DNA of 64,000 bases from Thermoplasmata archaeon (GTDB lineage: Archaea > Thermoplasmatota > Thermoplasmata > Lutacidiplasmatales > UBA184), in the NCBI GenBank assembly GCA_035933635.1, contig DASYYY010000021.1:86918-150917 (forward strand). The letters run 5' to 3'. The notes under the pieces are model-generated. The model was not told the DNA's origin, did not search any database, and saw only the letters and a program-made list of their open reading frames with translations. Position numbers and translations under genes: made by a program. This document shows positions 26,169-42,742 of this stretch, one piece after another. The first letter of the stretch is position 1, and every line of letters starts with the position of its first letter.

Positions 26169-26188
26169 TGGGCCCAGTCGGATTTGAA
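26169..26188. repeat. attL-like direct repeat TGGGCCCAGTCGGATTTGAA, identical to the 3' end of tRNA-Ile at 42668..42687
   Basis: 20/20 nt identity with tRNA nt 56–75 (T-loop 3' half plus acceptor 3' strand). Flanking sequence diverges on both sides. The interval between the repeats has lower GC and carries mobile-element genes. Confidence 0.6.
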
Positions 26189-26343
26189 TACGAATGGGTT
26201 CGGGCCCGTCCAATTCGCCTCACAAGCGCCCCAAGTCCGGCCGCGAGCCTTGCCGAGGGGGTGGGTTCAACACTGCCCGTGGTCGCACTGTTTCTTGGGC
26301 CAATCCCCAGATTCGATTCGCACGTTCGTAGTCGCCTCCTGAA

Positions 26344-26835
26344 TCATCGGTCGCCACGGCCTATGACGTCTTCGAGGGGTTTCCACAATGACCAGTACTT
26401 CTCCGGGAGCCACAGGCTGCCAGTGCTGTCATCTTCACCGTAGTAGCGACTCACGCTCCGGGTAGCACCCTTCGGGGTGGCGGCGTGGGATATTGGGGGC
26501 GATCCGCCATTTCGACCGCCGAGGGGTCTGAGGTCAAAGATTACAACGTAGTCGCTCAGGCGCAGGGATGCTGCCTTTCCCAGAGGCACGACTGAGTTCC
26601 GAGTCCCTTTCACCTGTAGCGTCCGCGGTCTCGATCCGCTTTTCGAGACGAGCAGCAGGTCCGGCCCCGCGGAGTTCTTCGCAGTCGGGATGGCGTGCCA
26701 ACCAAGTTTCGAAGCTACGACCATCGACCAGCCGAGCGCCTCTAGGCTGGTGCTGACGTTCCTCCACTGATCCCGCCCCATCGGGCTACCCCCTCGGAGG
26801 AGCGTTAAGGCCTGTTCGTAGCCAGCCCCGAGCAA
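26344..26835 (-). CDS. Hjc-like (archaeal Holliday-junction-resolvase-fold, PD-(D/E)xK) nuclease-like protein
   Basis: N-terminus GAGYEQALTLL and core SAGPDLLLVSKSGSRPRTLQVKGT parallel the Hjc motifs (GxxxERxLxxxL and SAGSxxxDLVA...IEVKxT). Here Q replaces E in the (E/Q)VK motif, as in Mrr. Confidence 0.4.
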   Translation of the reverse strand: MLGAGYEQALTLLRGGSPMGRDQWRNVSTSLEALGWSMVVASKLGWHAIPTAKNSAGPDLLLVSKSGSRPRTLQVKGTRNSVVPLGKAASLRLSDYVVIFDLRPLGGRNGGSPPISHAATPKGATRSVSRYYGEDDSTGSLWLPEKYWSLWKPLEDVIGRGDR

Positions 26836-27060
26836 GTATGCATGACGTTGCCGCGCGAGTGTGGCACCCTACTGAGTTGATTTGGCCCGGAAGGGTTGAG
26901 GCGTCGACTTCACCCGGGGATACACGACCGGCCGTTACCTAGAGGGGTCTGAGTCTGCCAGTATAGAATCAGAGCTCTGGACCGGTCGGCGCGTAGTTGA
27001 GAGCCCTTGCACTACCTCTCGGCCGGCGGAGACCTAGATGCTGCCGCGCTCGCCCAGGAA

Positions 27061-27669
27061 TCAGAAGGGGCCGCGACCCGAGCCCCAGAGGACCAACCAC
27101 GCAGTGGCTAACACGAGTGAGGAGACAAAGCACGCAATCCAGAGAAACCTGAGCCGTAGAACAAACCGATGCGTGGAACCCCCAGCCTCCCCCGCCATTG
27201 TCCCTCTCACTCGTTTCGAGGTGAACGGTTTGAAGATGCTCCAGCTCGCGTCTTCTATTCCCAACGGAAGGGTTTCTATCTGGGCCTCGAGCAGGATTAC
27301 ATCCCGCTTCCATGTTTTGAGGGCTTTTTCATGCCCCTCTGCAACCTCGGCCCACTCTCGGCACAAGAAACCGCCGATTGCTGTGGCGCCCACCAGTCCA
27401 AGCAGTTTCGTCGGGATTTGCAACGGTGCGAGAAGCAAGCCGACGACCGACGCGGCGACCACGGTCATGATTGCTCCCCAGAGGGCTGATCGAAACCCAA
27501 GAACATCGTCCTCGTGGTGAATGAGTCTGGAGTACGTGTCGTGCAACCAGCGATACGAATCCAATTCCTCGCCGTCTAACCCACTCCTCAGGAAGCCGGG
27601 GACCTTACGCGGGCCTGTGAGATCAGTCGTCTGTGGTTTCGGATTCGACGTCCGAGTCACCCTCCTCAT
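27061..27669 (-). CDS. Hypothetical membrane protein
   Basis: Predicted TM helices [30 protein letters not shown] and [21 protein letters not shown]. Overlaps the 3' end of the MTase-Mrr gene by 47 bp, so an internal start is possible. Confidence 0.35.
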
Positions 27670-40424: not shown

Positions 40425-40473
40425 GCCCTTGGGCAGACACTGATGTACCCTATAAGGCTCACAACGATGTGAG

Positions 40474-41526
40474 TTGGGGGGCCCCGCTCACATGTCGAAG
40501 AGAATCCTAGACCCATGGGACCCGCACGGGTCGCCCGAACGAAAGCGCAGGGCGGTGCCTTCAGAGGCCCGAGCGCTCGTCATTGACCTGCTCGAGGAGT
40601 TGACCCCACGACGACATTCGCCCAACGATCCCATTCCGATTGGGCTGATGCTTGACGAATCCGAGCGGTGGGTCGGGAGCGGACGCTGGAAGTACGGGCC
40701 GCCCGCCGGGCGCCATACGCTCGAGGTCCGGATCCTCCGCGCGATGGCCCCGCTGATTTCAGAGGGGCGAGTGCGCCGCATCGAAGGTCACGGATTCCTC
40801 CTCGCCGGAGCTGAATCTGCCGACCGGGCTCTCGAACGAGCAATACAACGTCTCCAATGGGTCCGTGACGCGCTCAAGCTACCGAAGGCCGAACGGGGTA
40901 CGTGGGCCGGGTCCGCCTGGACCTATGCGACCTGGGCCTTCGTCGACGCGATTCCACTCGTGGAGGATCGAGTCTCCGATGAGATGGAGAAGTGGAAGCG
41001 AGAGCGAACCACCCTTCGCCGAGTCGATGACGATCCGATGAATGCACACCTGGAAGCGACGCTACGCGGATCAAATCTAAGCGTCCCTGACGCGATTCGC
41101 GAGATGGGCCAGGAGATCTTCGCCTCCGGCCTGAAGCACCAGCTCGCACCGAAGTGTGAGCTATGTCAACGCGATTTGCCTCATGAAGGGAAGGCTACGG
41201 ATTTTCACGAGGCGATCGAATCGAGGTTGAAGCTCGTCGAGGGGTTCGACCCGACCGCGCACGGTCACTCCCCGTGCGGGGAACAGTGCAACGCCTTCTG
41301 GCTTCTGGATTACCTCAGGCACGGGATGAGGGAAGCCCCGCCGCAGTGGGCGAAGGAGCTACCGCCTGCACCGCCGGCGCCCTTACTACCGCTTGGTTCT
41401 CGTCCAGCCGCGACACAAACTCCCACCCCTCGGCGAGCATGGCGCCGACTTCGCAAATCGGGACCGCCTTCTGAGCTGGTCTTACGGGCGCGGCGGAAGC
41501 GAGGAACTTCCCGAAGATCGCCTTGA
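40474..41526 (+). CDS. Hypothetical protein (element-encoded). C-terminal ~200 nt overlap the integrase gene on the opposite strand
   Basis: Non-repetitive sequence up to about residue 285, then a Pro/Arg-rich tail. Likely start is MSKRIL (40492). No family recognised. Confidence 0.3.
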   Translation: MGGPAHMSKRILDPWDPHGSPERKRRAVPSEARALVIDLLEELTPRRHSPNDPIPIGLMLDESERWVGSGRWKYGPPAGRHTLEVRILRAMAPLISEGRVRRIEGHGFLLAGAESADRALERAIQRLQWVRDALKLPKAERGTWAGSAWTYATWAFVDAIPLVEDRVSDEMEKWKRERTTLRRVDDDPMNAHLEATLRGSNLSVPDAIREMGQEIFASGLKHQLAPKCELCQRDLPHEGKATDFHEAIESRLKLVEGFDPTAHGHSPCGEQCNAFWLLDYLRHGMREAPPQWAKELPPAPPAPLLPLGSRPAATQTPTPRRAWRRLRKSGPPSELVLRARRKRGTSRRSP

Positions 41527-42622
41527 GCTCGTCCTCGGATTTCTCAGCGAGGTCGAGCTTATCCAACTCACCCTGCGGCATCCCCCGGGCTGAGAGTAGT
41601 GCCTTGAGGACCTTGTTGACACCATCATCCGCCCCGGACTTGGTGGGGACGGTCGAAAGAAACGGCTCGCACCGCTTGTAGGCGGCCCTCTGGTCCTCGA
41701 CCATAGATGCCGGGAGGTTCGGTCTCCCGGTCGTGTAGTGTCGCGCGGTCACGTCCCCGGTGTGTCCCGACCAGAACTCGACGTACCTATCCGAAACTTT
41801 CCCCGCGTTCGCCGCCTCGAGGCAGCGAGAGAAGAAGTAAGAGCGAAGGGCGTAGGGGCGGGCCCCGATTCCAGCAGCGCGGAGGGCCTGGCGCGCCCGG
41901 TCGCCCACGTTGATCGTCGTCATGAACCGCTTGATGCTCTTCGACGGCGACACTAGGTCTGTCTCCTTGTCGATCTTCTCTCCTCCAAGCGCTCTCTCCT
42001 CGAGGTGCTGCTTGAGGTACTCGCAGCCCTCCGTCCCCAGGAACGTAAAGTAAGCGTGCCCGGCTTTCGACGAGGTGGAACGAACCTTCACCAAGGCCGG
42101 GACCTTCTCGATTTGGACGGTCTTCGCATGGATCGAGAGCCCTTCGATGTCGCCAACTCGGAGCCCATCCGTGCCATCGTACGAGCCCAGCACCTGCGGT
42201 CGAAGCCCGCTGAAAGCCATCAGAGCGATTACGACGCGCTGCCCCGGGTTGGCTGCAAGGACAGCCTTCCGAAGCTGTTCCGGTGTGATCGGGTCCTCCC
42301 GTTCGACCCGCGGATGCGACCTCTCGTTGGGGACCTTCAGACCTCTTGGGAGTTCCTTCTCATTGTAAGCTAACCAGCTCCGTAGCGCTTTGAGTGTAGT
42401 CCGGACATACTCTCCTGAGTGCTTCGCCCTGCGTTCTTCTTCGAGGTAGTCCTCCAACTGCACCCGGAGCCGATCCTTTGAGACTTCGGCGAGAGTTTCC
42501 GGGTCGGTCTTCATCTGGCGACAGAATGCCTCGATCCGCCGTCGGCTCACGTCAGCGTAGAGCTGCGATCCGCGGGCAACATTTCGGTGCCAGCGGTCAA
42601 ACTTCTCTGACGGATTGGCCAT
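41315..42622 (-). CDS. Tyrosine recombinase/integrase
   Basis: ALMAFSGLRPQVL (box I Arg) and WSGHTGDVTARHYTT (HxxR...Y box II). 45 nt from the 3' end of tRNA-Ile. Confidence 0.85.
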   Translation of the reverse strand: MANPSEKFDRWHRNVARGSQLYADVSRRRIEAFCRQMKTDPETLAEVSKDRLRVQLEDYLEEERRAKHSGEYVRTTLKALRSWLAYNEKELPRGLKVPNERSHPRVEREDPITPEQLRKAVLAANPGQRVVIALMAFSGLRPQVLGSYDGTDGLRVGDIEGLSIHAKTVQIEKVPALVKVRSTSSKAGHAYFTFLGTEGCEYLKQHLEERALGGEKIDKETDLVSPSKSIKRFMTTINVGDRARQALRAAGIGARPYALRSYFFSRCLEAANAGKVSDRYVEFWSGHTGDVTARHYTTGRPNLPASMVEDQRAAYKRCEPFLSTVPTKSGADDGVNKVLKALLSARGMPQGELDKLDLAEKSEDELKAIFGKFLASAAPVRPAQKAVPICEVGAMLAEGWEFVSRLDENQAVVRAPAVQAVAPSPTAAGLPSSRA

Positions 42623-42667
42623 GGCCTCGATAGGCCCAGCGCGTGTGGGTTAAAATGGGTTCCTACT

Positions 42668-42742
42668 TGGGCCCAGTCGGATTTGAACCGACGACCTCCC
42701 GGTTATCAGCCGGGTGCTCCAGCCAACCTAAGCTATGGGCCC
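42668..42742 (-). tRNA. tRNA-Ile (anticodon GAU)
   Basis: Manually folded 75-nt cloverleaf: 7-bp acceptor stem GGGCCCA/UGGGCCC, D-stem GCUU/GAGC, anticodon stem CCCGG/CCGGG with loop CUGAUAA, T-stem GUCGG/CCGAC with loop UUCAAAU, discriminator A. CCA is not encoded. Confidence 0.85.

What the first reader, a model, noticed from the sequence alone, without database searches (positions are those of the whole stretch)
26169..42742. Roughly 16.5 kb integrative element at tRNA-Ile(GAU) delimited by a perfect 20-bp direct repeat of the tRNA 3' end
The 20-mer TGGGCCCAGTCGGATTTGAA occurs at 26169..26188 and again as the 3' end of the tRNA (42668..42687), with an intact tyrosine integrase gene next to the tRNA copy.

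The interval has visibly lower GC than the ~68 % flanks. It contains a prim-pol/helicase replication gene, an AbrB-like regulator, a serine recombinase, two MTases, an Hjc-like nuclease and the ATPase–PIN module. There are no obvious capsid or conjugation genes, so it looks like an integrative plasmid or a cryptic provirus. The cargo region 31.5–34.7 kb, made up of four membrane or hypothetical proteins and a 500-bp non-coding stretch, is uncharacterised.
Basis: seen in the sequence. Interest (0 to 1): 0.6.

Follow-up and report, generated by a model that had tools for sequence, protein, structure and literature searches.

The report
Integrated plasmid-like element at archaeal tRNA-Ile
A 16.5-kb mobile DNA element carrying its own integrase, replication genes and anti-virus defence genes sits in the end of a tRNA-Ile gene of an uncultured soil-type Thermoplasmata archaeon. 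It is a well-supported but fairly ordinary example of a known kind of archaeal integrated element.

Summary
The 20-mer occurs only at 26169-26188 and 42668-42687. The second copy is the T-loop-to-discriminator end of an intact tRNA-Ile(GAU).

The adjacent 435-aa gene gets no direct Pfam hit and NCBI calls it hypothetical. Family profile, predicted fold and conserved residues (R141, K186, Y257xxR260, H287, Y296) show it is a class II, pNOB8-type tyrosine integrase. In 24 of 41 related genomic loci a homologue lies just downstream of a tRNA on the same strand.

An independent Logan contig is 16,539 bp and spans exactly 26159-42697. Left-flank contigs from three samples stop at 26188. A k=31 simulation reproduces this only when occupied and empty sites coexist, so the insertion is polymorphic in nature.

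The element (16,499 bp, GC 0.63 against 0.69) has two parts:
- A backbone: integrase, AbrB-like regulator, Prim-Pol fused to an MCM-like helicase, orphan methyltransferase, small serine recombinase.
- Cargo: methyltransferase-Mrr fusion, an ABC-ATPase plus PIN pair like the HEC-03 defence system, and ORFan membrane proteins.

No capsid or conjugation genes were found.

Verdict: a cryptic integrated element or integrative plasmid, a new member of a known kind. The "Hjc-like nuclease" label is unsupported.

The parts
26169..26188 (.). Distal att core (attL): displaced copy of the last 20 nt of tRNA-Ile, in the same orientation as the tRNA copy.
   Evidence: Left-flank Logan contigs from three samples end exactly at 26188.
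26193..26201 (+). AATGGGTTC 9-mer, 4 nt inside the element from the attL core. Candidate integrase-binding site on the P' side of attP.
   Evidence: 3 exact copies in the window against 0.26 expected. Two of them flank the core in the reconstructed attP.
26344..26835 (-). ORFan of 145-163 aa.
   Evidence: No hit. The only match among 5.8e9 clusters is itself.
27061..27669 (-). Predicted 202-aa membrane protein. Its end overlaps the end of the methyltransferase gene.
   Evidence: Weak 8xMP hit at E 0.005, below the cut-off.
27623..29401 (-). N6/N4 DNA methyltransferase fused to a C-terminal Mrr-like (possibly inactive) restriction-endonuclease domain.
   Evidence: Pfam N6_N4_Mtase 1e-45, NA-iREase1 2e-7, Mrr_cat 2e-6. 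PADLOC MTase_II 9e-55.
29640..31019 (+). ABC-type ATPase (AAA_15/AAA_21 plus DUF3696). ATPase component of an HEC-03-like two-gene defence module.
   Evidence: PADLOC NsnB 3e-57, and HEC-03B 2e-44 over the full length.
31024..31521 (+). PIN-domain protein of 165 aa, the effector partner of the ATPase.
   Evidence: PADLOC HEC-03A 1e-5. Pfam PIN_3 at E 0.02 over its full length, below the cut-off. N-terminal VDTNVL motif seen in the sequence.
31522..32051 (.). 530-bp stretch with no called gene.
   Evidence: No Rfam match and no tandem repeat.
32052..34668 (.). Four small ORFs: 32052-32639 (+), 32655-33248 (-), 33411-33935 (+), 34120-34668 (-). Three have hydrophobic helices. Function unknown.
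   Evidence: Gene calls. No significant family hit. No tblastn match in the related loci.
34689..35624 (-). Small serine recombinase (resolvase/invertase type). The catalytic-serine motif YLRVSTEDQ is present.
   Evidence: Pfam Resolvase 1e-25. Sequence. 68-69% identical homologues lie in related elements L015 and L133.
35819..35989 (.). Three exact copies of GTAACCGTCC (+35819, -35955, +35980). The last two form a 10-bp inverted repeat with a 15-nt spacer. They lie in the 627-bp intergenic region upstream of the serine recombinase gene. Candidate res or ori site.
   Evidence: All exact copies in the window fall within these 171 bp.
36252..36686 (-). 144-aa protein with a Cys-rich N-terminus. 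Last gene of the replication operon.
   Evidence: No significant family.
36683..37708 (-). Second N6/N4 DNA methyltransferase. No cognate nuclease gene is evident next to it.
   Evidence: Pfam N6_N4_Mtase 4e-23. PADLOC MTase_II.
37669..40059 (-). Replication protein of 796 aa: N-terminal Prim-Pol (AEP) domain fused to an MCM-like AAA+ helicase domain with a C-terminal helical/winged part.
40056..40226 (-). 56-aa protein, conserved next to the AbrB-like gene in related elements.
   Evidence: L010, L032; L131, L132; L133.
40227..40424 (-). AbrB/SpoVT (MazE-like) DNA-binding protein of 65 aa. Probable regulator of the replication operon.
   Evidence: Pfam MazE_antitoxin 6e-6. Conserved in L010, L015, L032, L133.
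40492..41526 (+). Conserved ~344-aa ORF. It is divergent from the AbrB-like gene and convergent with the integrase gene, overlapping its 3' end by about 210 bp. Function unknown.
   Evidence: tblastn 37% identity over 256 aa to L010, mostly outside that locus's integrase gene, E 2e-39. Not called in the Logan gene calls.
41315..42622 (-). Tyrosine integrase of 435 aa. It is class II/pNOB8-type (the gene stays intact on integration). Catalytic set: R141, K186, Y257-x-x-R260, H287, Y296. There is an extra C-terminal domain at about aa 305-415.
42654..42662 (+). AATGGGTTC 9-mer, 5 nt inside the element from the attR core. It lies within a stretch (AACCCATTTTAACCCA on the integrase strand) that is conserved with the sister element L131/L132. 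Candidate integrase-binding site or integrase promoter.
42668..42687 (.). tRNA-proximal att core (attR), which is the 3' end of the tRNA.
42668..42742 (-). Intact tRNA-Ile(GAU), the integration target. No encoded CCA.
   Evidence: Identical to the tRNA-Ile of relative L016 and 1 nt different from L011.

Best explanation
This is a 16,499-bp plasmid-like integrated mobile element (a 'cryptic integrated element') in the chromosome of an uncultured Thermoplasmata archaeon.

Integration (inferred from anatomy):
- The element's class II (pNOB8-type, lambda-paradigm) tyrosine integrase recombined a 20-bp core in the element's attP with the identical last 20 nt of the chromosomal tRNA-Ile(GAU).
- The element-borne copy now completes the tRNA.
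- The original copy was displaced 16.5 kb away.
- The reconstructed attP carries the 9-mer AATGGGTTC on both sides of the core. These are probably integrase-binding sites.

Life as a circle (inferred, not shown):
- Once excised, the circle would replicate with its own Prim-Pol/MCM-like helicase, expressed from an operon headed by an AbrB-like regulator.
- Multimers would be resolved by the small serine recombinase at a nearby repeat cluster.
- The orphan methyltransferase would protect the element's DNA.

Cargo:
- The lower-GC distal half carries host-benefiting genes: a methyltransferase-Mrr fusion and an ABC-ATPase plus PIN defence pair of the HEC-03 type.
- It also carries ORFan membrane proteins.

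Shown: the repeat, the tRNA, the integrase identity, the foreign composition, the family-wide tRNA association, and polymorphism of the insertion in natural samples.
Inferred: the direction of events, the binding sites, the circular replicating form, and the roles of the resolvase and the cargo.
For: Repeat and tRNA.

Integrase:
- 198 homologues, several named site-specific integrase from Thermoplasmata and other archaea.
- Invariant R141, K186, Y257, R260, H287, Y296.
- The family profile hits T. acidophilum XerA (5hxy) at E 7.6e-8, with the catalytic motifs aligned.
- 11 of 30 family members hit PF00589.
- The AF2 model (pLDDT 83) matches only tyrosine recombinases: XerA 2.7e-7, IntI4, lambda Int, Cre.
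- hhalign to pNOB8 Int gives probability 81%, E 1e-5, with YxxR aligned.
- R...YxxR...Y and an intact gene define pNOB8-type/class II integrases (PMC8371274).

Family behaviour:
- 24 of 41 genomic loci have a same-strand tRNA ending about 50-190 nt upstream of the integrase gene. The isoacceptors vary and include tRNA-Ile(GAU) twice.
- L131 (tRNA-Ile) and L133 (tRNA-Met) show the same arrangement.

Mobility:
- Logan contig SRR12347819_29074 is 16,539 bp and equals window 26159-42697 with 0 mismatches.
- Left-flank contigs in SRR12347818, -19 and -22 all end at 26188.
- Only a mixture of occupied and empty sites reproduces both facts at k=31. Logan uses k=31.
- Host relatives L011, L016 and L131 carry other elements with 45-72% identical integrases at the same tRNA-Ile.

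Composition.
Gene content.
Conserved order of integrase, AbrB-like gene, 56-aa gene, replication gene and serine recombinase in relatives, with swapped replication proteins and different cargo.
Against: - No read-level proof of an empty attB. No evidence at all for an excised circle: the contig lengths argue against a detectable attP junction in SRR12347819.
- The branch at the left junction could be another element at the same site rather than an empty site.
- The integrase itself fails Pfam's threshold.
- No free plasmid or virus with this backbone exists in PLSDB, INPHARED or IMG/VR, so 'plasmid' rests on gene content only.
- No transfer machinery was identified, so how the element moves between cells is unknown.
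- Compositional atypicality continues about 2.5 kb beyond the tRNA, so composition alone does not delimit the element.
Confidence: 0.85

Rival explanations
1. It is a cryptic provirus. The four small membrane or ORFan proteins and other unknowns would be structural proteins of an undescribed, perhaps membrane-enveloped, archaeal virus, and the element spreads as virions.
For: - About 5 kb of ORFans, including three membrane proteins, are uncharacterised.
- Archaeal virus structural proteins are often unrecognisable by sequence.
- Integrase plus Prim-Pol modules occur in both viruses and plasmids (PMC6563490).
Against: - No capsid, portal, terminase, spike or packaging ATPase hit in Pfam or PHROGs.
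- Integrase and replication protein have no relatives in INPHARED or IMG/VR.
- The ORFan block is not conserved in related elements, whereas structural modules usually are.
Confidence: 0.1
2. It is a fixed, no longer mobile genomic island. This would be an old insertion, or an ancestral segment, that merely retains a repeat and an integrase gene.
For: - No circular junction is detectable in the Logan graph.
- The flanks on both sides also have reduced GC3 (0.70-0.82), suggesting a long-standing variable region.
- All three relatives also have the tRNA-Ile occupied.
Against: - The two cores are perfect 20-mers.
- The integrase ORF is intact with all catalytic residues.
- Assembly graphs of three samples branch exactly at the core.
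- The relatives carry different elements, not the same content.
Confidence: 0.04
3. It is an assembly or binning artefact: a separate episome wrongly joined into the chromosome contig through the shared 20-bp tRNA sequence.
For: In Logan the element assembles as its own 16.5-kb contig. MAG contigs often mis-join at repeats.
Against: - The independent Logan contig carries 10 nt of the unique left flank (TCGCAGTCAA) and 10 nt of the tRNA body at its two ends. Reads therefore cross both junctions.
- A free circle would give a 16,519- or 16,529-bp unitig without flank bases.
- 20 bp is shorter than the k used, so it cannot by itself cause a join.
Confidence: 0.01

Closest known systems
Cryptic integrated elements (CIE) of archaea, as catalogued in Thaumarchaeota (Krupovic et al. 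2019, PMC6563490)
   Same: - Integrase-bounded element flanked by att direct repeats.
- Size near the reported median of 17 kb.
- Replication protein with a primpol domain fused to a helicase.
- Restriction-modification-type cargo.
- No viral or conjugative hallmark genes.
   Different: - The host is a Thermoplasmata archaeon.
- The helicase module is MCM-like rather than superfamily 3.
- The backbone also holds a small serine recombinase and an AbrB-like regulator that are conserved among relatives.
- No sequence similarity to those elements was tested or found.
pNOB8-type (class II) archaeal tyrosine integrases (She et al.; review PMC8371274)
   Same: - The integrase gene stays intact on integration because the att site lies outside the ORF.
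- The target is the 3' end of a tRNA.
- Catalytic signature R...YxxR...Y.
- Similar length: 435 aa here, 439 aa for pNOB8 Int.
- Remote homology by hhalign: probability 81%, E 1e-5.
   Different: - Only 23% identity over 226 columns to pNOB8 Int, and no BLAST-level match. It falls outside the review's 30%/60% family criterion relative to pNOB8 itself.
- A family-specific C-terminal domain of about 110 aa.
- pNOB8 is a 41-kb conjugative plasmid, whereas this element has no conjugation genes.
XerA chromosome-dimer resolvase of Thermoplasma acidophilum / Pyrococcus abyssi (PDB 5hxy, 4a8e)
   Same: Best sequence-profile and fold match. The catalytic domain aligns residue for residue at Arg-I, Lys, xxR, His and Tyr.
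   Different: - XerA has HxxR, is about 280-320 aa, and is a chromosomal housekeeping enzyme acting at dif.
- This protein has YxxR, is 435 aa, is encoded on a foreign-composition element, and sits next to a tRNA with att repeats.
Prim-Pol-helicase replication proteins of mobile elements (pRN1 ORF904-type, phage NrS-1 primase-polymerase-helicase, PriRep1; MCM-like Cch of SCCmec)
   Same: N-terminal AEP/Prim-Pol domain followed by a hexameric-helicase-type P-loop ATPase. Fold matches to NrS-1 CTR, PriRep1, Cch and a SaPI replication protein.
   Different: - The C-module has no Pfam or PDB sequence match.
- The protein is rare: 159 relatives among 1.84 billion representatives, and only one close one.
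HEC-03 anti-phage system (ABC ATPase + PIN; Payne et al. preprint 10.1101/2024.01.29.577857)
   Same: Adjacent ABC-type ATPase and PIN-domain genes. Both match the PADLOC HEC-03 models (2e-44 and 1e-5). In E. coli both genes were needed for defence.
   Different: - Here the pair is in an archaeon, as cargo of an integrated element rather than embedded in an Hma system.
- The ATPase scores higher with the NsnB model (3e-57).
- Function is untested.

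Membership tests
Tyrosine recombinase superfamily | Catalytic residues Arg-I, Lys, (H/Y/K)xxR, His/Trp and the Tyr nucleophile, in order | tested here: met
   R141, K186, Y257, R260, H287 and Y296 are invariant in 30 homologues. They align to the XerA catalytic motifs.
Tyrosine recombinase superfamily | Two-domain C-clamp fold (core-binding plus catalytic domain) | tested here: met
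   AF2 pLDDT 83. All top Foldseek PDB hits are tyrosine recombinases: 4a8e 2.7e-7, 5hxy, 2a3v, 1z19, Cre.
Tyrosine recombinase superfamily | Match to Pfam PF00589 at the curated threshold | tested here: not met
   No Pfam hit at E<=0.1 for this protein. 11 of 30 family members do match PF00589 at E<=0.1, best 3e-8. This is a sensitivity failure of the model, not evidence against the fold.
Class II / pNOB8-type archaeal integrases | Integrase gene remains intact on integration (att site outside the ORF) | tested here: met
   The core at 42668-42687 lies 45 nt upstream of the start codon at 42622. The ORF is uninterrupted.
Class II / pNOB8-type archaeal integrases | Signature R...YxxR...Y (PMC8371274) | tested here: met
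   Y257-A-L-R260 here. It aligns with Y-D-L-R of pNOB8 Int.
Class II / pNOB8-type archaeal integrases | Family-level similarity to pNOB8 Int (30% identity over 60% of the protein, the review's criterion) | tested here: not met
   hhalign gives 23% identity over 226 columns at probability 81%. tblastn against PLSDB, which contains pNOB8, found no match.
Class I / SSV-type 'suicidal' integrases | att site inside the integrase ORF, so the gene is split on integration | tested here: not met
   The integrase ORF is intact and the core lies outside it.
Site-specifically integrated mobile element (iMGE) | Direct repeats (attL/attR) of which one is part of the target gene | tested here: met
Site-specifically integrated mobile element (iMGE) | Empty target site in the same or closely related genomes | tested here: inconclusive
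   Indirect support only:
- Contig boundaries in three Logan samples fit an occupied-plus-empty mixture.
- The exact attB junction was not found in JGI metagenomes.
- No close relative with an empty site was retrieved.
Site-specifically integrated mobile element (iMGE) | Excised circular form (attP junction) | tested here: not met
   An element unitig of 16,539 bp rather than 16,519 bp argues that no attP junction survives in the SRR12347819 graph. Raw reads were not available.
Provirus | Capsid and packaging hallmark genes | tested here: not met
   No such hit in Pfam or PHROGs. No relatives in INPHARED or IMG/VR.
Integrative conjugative element | VirB4/VirD4-type ATPases, relaxase or other transfer genes | tested here: not met
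   No such Pfam or NCBIfam hit among the element's proteins.
HEC-03 defence system | Adjacent ABC ATPase and PIN-domain genes matching the system's models | tested here: met
   PADLOC HEC-03B 2e-44 (ATPase) and HEC-03A 1e-5 (PIN protein). PIN_3 at E 0.02 over its full length.
HEC-03 defence system | Protection against viruses requiring both genes | not testable with these tools
   Shown only for the E. coli-tested homologue.
MCM-like AAA+ helicase (C-module of the replication protein) | AAA+ fold with Walker A/B and closest structural similarity to MCM | tested here: met
   [not shown]
   No hit in any library or in PDB. No homologues from which to build a profile.

The most novel reading that the evidence does not exclude
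The element is the first delimited member of an undescribed family of Thermoplasmata integrative plasmids, and it is still excising and re-integrating in natural soil populations.

The family would be defined by three features:
- A conserved backbone: pNOB8-like YxxR integrase with an extra C-terminal domain, AbrB-like regulator, 56-aa protein, exchangeable replication protein, small serine recombinase.
- Preferential use of tRNA 3' ends.
- Shuttling of defence systems.

Its Prim-Pol/MCM-like replication protein would be a new, very rare replicase lineage.
Probability: 0.5. Interest if true: 0.45.

Novelty: new member of a known kind. Interest (0 to 1): 0.35.

Why it matters
Mobile elements of the uncultured, high-GC soil and peat Thermoplasmata are essentially undescribed. 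This locus gives several concrete starting points:
- An exactly delimited element with attL, attR and a reconstructable attP.
- An integrase family that current annotation misses: NCBI calls this gene hypothetical and Pfam gives no hit.
- A conserved backbone that can be used to find more such elements.

It also shows that a bacterial-type ABC-ATPase/PIN defence pair travels on archaeal integrated elements.

The exact-boundary behaviour of k=31 Logan contigs is a cheap way to detect polymorphic insertions without reads.

None of this overturns current understanding. It extends the known pattern of tRNA-targeting archaeal integrated elements to another lineage.

Tried and rejected
1. An exact search for the predicted empty attB junction (8 nt of flank, the core, 9 nt of tRNA) in JGI metagenome contigs found 0 hits.
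2. The right-flank DUF4037 protein was used to fetch related metagenomic loci. The best were only 36-47% identical, and none had tRNA-Ile synteny. This was a dead end for finding an empty site.
3. 90%-identity clusters of the flank proteins hold only the source MAG and Logan copies, so no strain-level alternatives were available.
4. I looked for the distal att repeat in 25 related loci. Only about 11 kb or less downstream of the tRNA was available, and only one weak 14-nt repeat (L036) turned up, so the sizes of related elements could not be determined.
5. Integrase and Prim-Pol were searched against PLSDB plasmids, INPHARED phages and IMG/VR, with no match.
6. An Rfam scan of the element found only the tRNA. 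The tandem-repeat scan found nothing notable. The sigma-70 promoter and terminator scan is not meaningful for an archaeon.
7. The Hjc-like label could not be supported by any library, and no alignment could be built.
8. The GTAACCG motif is not conserved upstream of the resolvase genes of L133 or L015.
9. I considered a tandem or composite array with a third, degenerate att site. None was found with up to 3 mismatches. The third AATGGGTTC copy at 34661-34669 coincides with the start codon of the 34120-34668 ORF and is probably fortuitous.
10. I considered the serine recombinase as the integrating enzyme and rejected it. It is a small resolvase-type protein, and a 20-bp tRNA-end duplication next to a tyrosine integrase is the classical tyrosine-recombinase footprint.

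Full report
OBSERVATION

The 20-mer TGGGCCCAGTCGGATTTGAA occurs exactly twice in the window, at 26169-26188 and 42668-42687. No further copy appears even with three mismatches allowed, and shuffles expect 0.00-0.01 matches. It is the only perfect repeat of this length in 20-48 kb.

ARAGORN and Rfam both find one intact tRNA-Ile(GAU) on the minus strand at 42668-42742, scoring 67 bits. Read on the tRNA strand, the repeat is TTCAAATCCGACTGGGCCCA. That is the T-loop, the 3' half of the T-stem, the 3' acceptor strand and the discriminator base. The identity ends abruptly on both sides. The element, counting one core, is 16,499 bp.

HOST AND SOURCE

Exact-sequence look-ups place the window in an NCBI third-party-annotation MAG named 'Thermoplasmata archaeon'. 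The locus tags are VGV89_037xx-038xx and the contig is 551,285 bp. A second MAG contig (GCA_035935735.1, DASYWS010000242.1, 11,106 bp) is 100% identical to window 30570-41675. NCBI annotates the integrase gene only as a hypothetical protein.

The flanks encode ordinary chromosomal functions:
- a 2-oxoacid dehydrogenase complex and an ABC transporter on the left;
- DUF1684, a SAM methyltransferase, DUF4037, a glyoxalase, a kinase-like ATPase and PKD-domain surface proteins nearby.

COMPOSITION

- Element GC is 0.629, against 0.691 and 0.689 for the flanks.
- The cargo half (26.2-34.7 kb) is 0.604 and the backbone half (34.7-42.7 kb) is 0.656.
- Mean GC3 is 0.73 for element genes and 0.89 for host core genes.
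- Tetranucleotide distance to the host profile exceeds z=4 from about 24-25 kb to about 45-46 kb. It peaks at z of about 15 over 27-31 kb.

Composition does not stop at the tRNA, however. The 2.5 kb beyond it, and the 3 kb left of attL, have intermediate GC3 (0.70-0.82). This suggests a long-standing variable neighbourhood.

THE INTEGRASE

The 435-aa ORF at 41315-42622 starts 45 nt from the core and is on the same strand as the tRNA. It has no Pfam hit even at E 0.1, and only sub-threshold XerC/XerD NCBIfam hits. This part of the claim therefore needed testing.

- It has 198 homologues. Many are named 'site-specific integrase', from Thermoplasmata, Bathyarchaeia, Odinarchaeia and others.
- In a 30-sequence alignment R141, K186, Y257, R260, H287 and Y296 are invariant.
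- The family profile hits Thermoplasma acidophilum XerA (5hxy) at E 7.6e-8, aligning GLRP/GVRV, SK/GK, PYxLR/PHVLR and GH...Y.
- 11 of 30 members hit PF00589.
- An AlphaFold model built on that alignment (pLDDT 83) matches only tyrosine recombinases in the PDB: XerA 2.7e-7, IntI4, Brujita and lambda integrases, Cre.

The His-to-Tyr change (YxxR) and the intact gene are what the literature uses to define pNOB8-type, class II archaeal integrases. SSV-type, class I integrases instead have KxxR and split their own gene on integration (PMC8371274). A profile comparison with pNOB8 Int itself (439 aa) gives probability 81%, E 1e-5 and 23% identity, with the YxxR motifs aligned. BLAST finds nothing.

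So the protein works like a pNOB8-type integrase but belongs to a separate family. The family has a conserved C-terminal extension of about 110 aa (residues ~305-415; G399 is nearly invariant and W400 invariant).

FAMILY BEHAVIOUR

A scan of one genome per species returned 41 loci. Nearly all are Thermoplasmata MAGs from soil, peat and acidic sites, and the best is 48-50% identical. The source species is therefore not among the representatives.

In 24 of the 41 loci a tRNA gene on the same strand ends roughly 50-190 nt upstream of the integrase gene. Targets include Ala(CGC) ten times, Ile(GAU) twice, and Arg, Glu, Val, Gly, Gln and Met. Two closer metagenomic relatives behave the same way: L131 at tRNA-Ile and L133 at tRNA-Met.

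The arrangement in the window is thus the family's norm.

IS THE INSERTION POLYMORPHIC?

The Logan assembly of run SRR12347819 contains a contig of 16,539 bp that equals window 26159-42697 with no mismatch. It consists of 10 nt of left flank, the core, the interior, the core, and 10 nt of tRNA body. Contigs carrying the left-flank methyltransferase in three runs (SRR12347818, -19, -22) all end at 26188, the last base of the core.

Logan builds k=31 unitigs, drops singleton k-mers, cleans the graph with Minia3 and reports only contigs longer than 150 bp (PMC12424806). I simulated k=31 unitigs for mixtures of the three possible forms:

| Mixture | Element unitig | Left-flank unitig ends at |
|---|---|---|
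| Occupied only | no break | no break |
| Occupied + empty | 16,539 bp (26159-42697) | 26188 |
| Occupied + circle | 16,519 bp | 26198 |
| All three | 16,519 bp | 26188 |

Only 'occupied + empty' reproduces both observations.

The left branch requires a sequence that shares the unique 11 nt of flank plus the core and then diverges. That is an empty attB or, less simply, another element at the same site. Either way the site is polymorphic in nature. The same contig also shows that reads cross both junctions, which excludes a mis-join. There is no sign of an attP circle.

A sister element behaves alike. Its integrase (72% identical) lies in one run on a contig that runs through the host flank, the tRNA-Ile and the integrase gene. 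In another run the contig starts 9 nt before the same core.

This evidence is indirect. The exact attB string was not found in JGI metagenomes.

RELATED GENOMES

L011, L016 and L131 are host relatives. Their flank proteins are 63-77% identical, and window 12851-21313 is collinear with L016 1-8403. All three carry tRNA-Ile(GAU), identical or 1 nt different, followed directly by an integrase of this family (45-72% identical). The downstream genes differ. The refuting scenario, the same gene content at this tRNA in relatives, is therefore not seen. This tRNA-Ile is a recurrently used site.

GENE CONTENT

Backbone, all on the minus strand and tightly packed:
- an AbrB/SpoVT-like 65-aa protein (MazE_antitoxin 6e-6);
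- a conserved 56-aa protein;
- the 796-aa replication protein;
- an N6/N4 methyltransferase (4e-23);
- a 144-aa protein;
- a 627-bp gap;
- a small serine recombinase (Resolvase 1e-25, with YLRVSTEDQ present).

Relatives keep the order integrase, AbrB-like gene, 56-aa gene, replication gene, serine recombinase. They swap the replication protein (D5_N/DUF5906 in L133, unknown proteins in L131/L132) and carry different cargo (SIR2, PLD-SNF2).

Cargo:
- A methyltransferase fused to an Mrr-like domain.
- An ABC ATPase plus PIN pair matching both PADLOC HEC-03 models (2e-44 and 1e-5). That system was shown to need both genes for phage defence in E. coli.
- A membrane protein.
- Four ORFans with no family.
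It has no hit anywhere and no homologue.

No capsid, packaging or conjugation gene was detected. Neither the integrase nor the replication protein has relatives in deposited phages, plasmids or IMG/VR.

attP ANATOMY (INFERRED)

Joining the element's ends gives AAAATGGGTTC-CTACT-[core]-TACG-AATGGGTTC. The 9-mer AATGGGTTC occurs only three times in the window against 0.26 expected, and two of those copies flank the core. The integrase-proximal arm is conserved with the sister element. These are candidate integrase-binding sites and/or the integrase promoter.

Upstream of the serine recombinase gene, three exact copies of GTAACCGTCC lie within 171 bp. Two of them form an inverted repeat. This is a candidate res or origin site.

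COMPARISON AND VERDICT

The element matches the 'cryptic integrated element' class described for archaea. That class has a median size of 17 kb, an integrase, att direct repeats, primpol-helicase replication proteins and restriction-modification cargo (PMC6563490). Its integration mode matches class II, pNOB8-type integrases (PMC8371274).

It is a new member of a known kind. It is well delimited and apparently still polymorphic, and three features deserve a note rather than a headline:
- an integrase family missed by Pfam and by NCBI annotation;
- a rare Prim-Pol/MCM-like replicase;
- an HEC-03-like defence pair in an archaeon.

A provirus with unrecognisable structural proteins cannot be excluded (about 10%).

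Noticed in passing
window 12851-21313 versus 42668-42742; loci L011, L016, L131: In three related genomes the order is ABC-transporter operon (+), tRNA-Ile (+), integrase (+). In the window the tRNA-integrase-element block is inverted relative to the same operon. About 4.9 kb of non-syntenic genes with lower GC3 (21.4-26.2 kb) lie between them. This suggests a local inversion or rearrangement at this integration hot spot.
   Followed up: partly
window 42743-45500: The 2.5 kb on the far (5') side of the tRNA encodes DUF4037, a glyoxalase and an AAA_33 kinase-like protein. It is also compositionally atypical (z 4.5, GC3 0.74-0.81) although it lies outside the att-bounded element. It may be the remnant of an older acquisition.
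   Followed up: partly
window 40492-41526 (+) versus 41315-42622 (-): A conserved ~344-aa ORF converges on the integrase gene and overlaps its 3' end by about 210 bp. The same arrangement and 37% identity are seen in L010. The Logan gene calls omit it. Function is unknown; it could be a recombination-directionality or regulatory factor.
   Followed up: partly
window 35819-35989: Three exact GTAACCGTCC copies lie within 171 bp upstream of the serine recombinase gene, including GGACGGTTAC-N15-GTAACCGTCC. The motif is not conserved upstream of the homologous recombinases in L133 or L015.
   Followed up: partly
window 41315-42622: NCBI annotates this integrase as 'hypothetical protein VGV89_03865' and Pfam gives no hit. 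The whole family is under-annotated: most homologues have no precomputed Pfam domain.
   Followed up: yes
window 41375-41710 (integrase residues ~305-415): The integrase family has a conserved C-terminal extension of about 110 aa after the catalytic tyrosine. It is predicted to be helices plus a small beta-sheet, with W400 invariant, and it is absent from XerA and lambda Int. Its role is unknown.
   Followed up: no
L132:1-95 and L131:4629-4770: A sister element has a 72% identical integrase and the same tRNA-Ile core. It is read through in one Logan run, but in another run the contig starts 9 nt before the core. This is a second case where k=31 contig ends mark an att site.
   Followed up: partly
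L010, L011, L014, L017, L019, L025, L032 and others: Many MAG contigs carrying integrases of this family end within 1-5 kb downstream of the integrase gene. This fits assemblies breaking inside or at such elements, so the elements are probably under-represented in MAGs.
   Followed up: no
window 34661-34671 (-): An inverted copy of the 11-mer AAAATGGGTTC, the same motif that lies next to the attR core, sits at the backbone/cargo boundary. It overlaps the start codon of the 34120-34668 ORF and is probably coincidental.
   Followed up: partly
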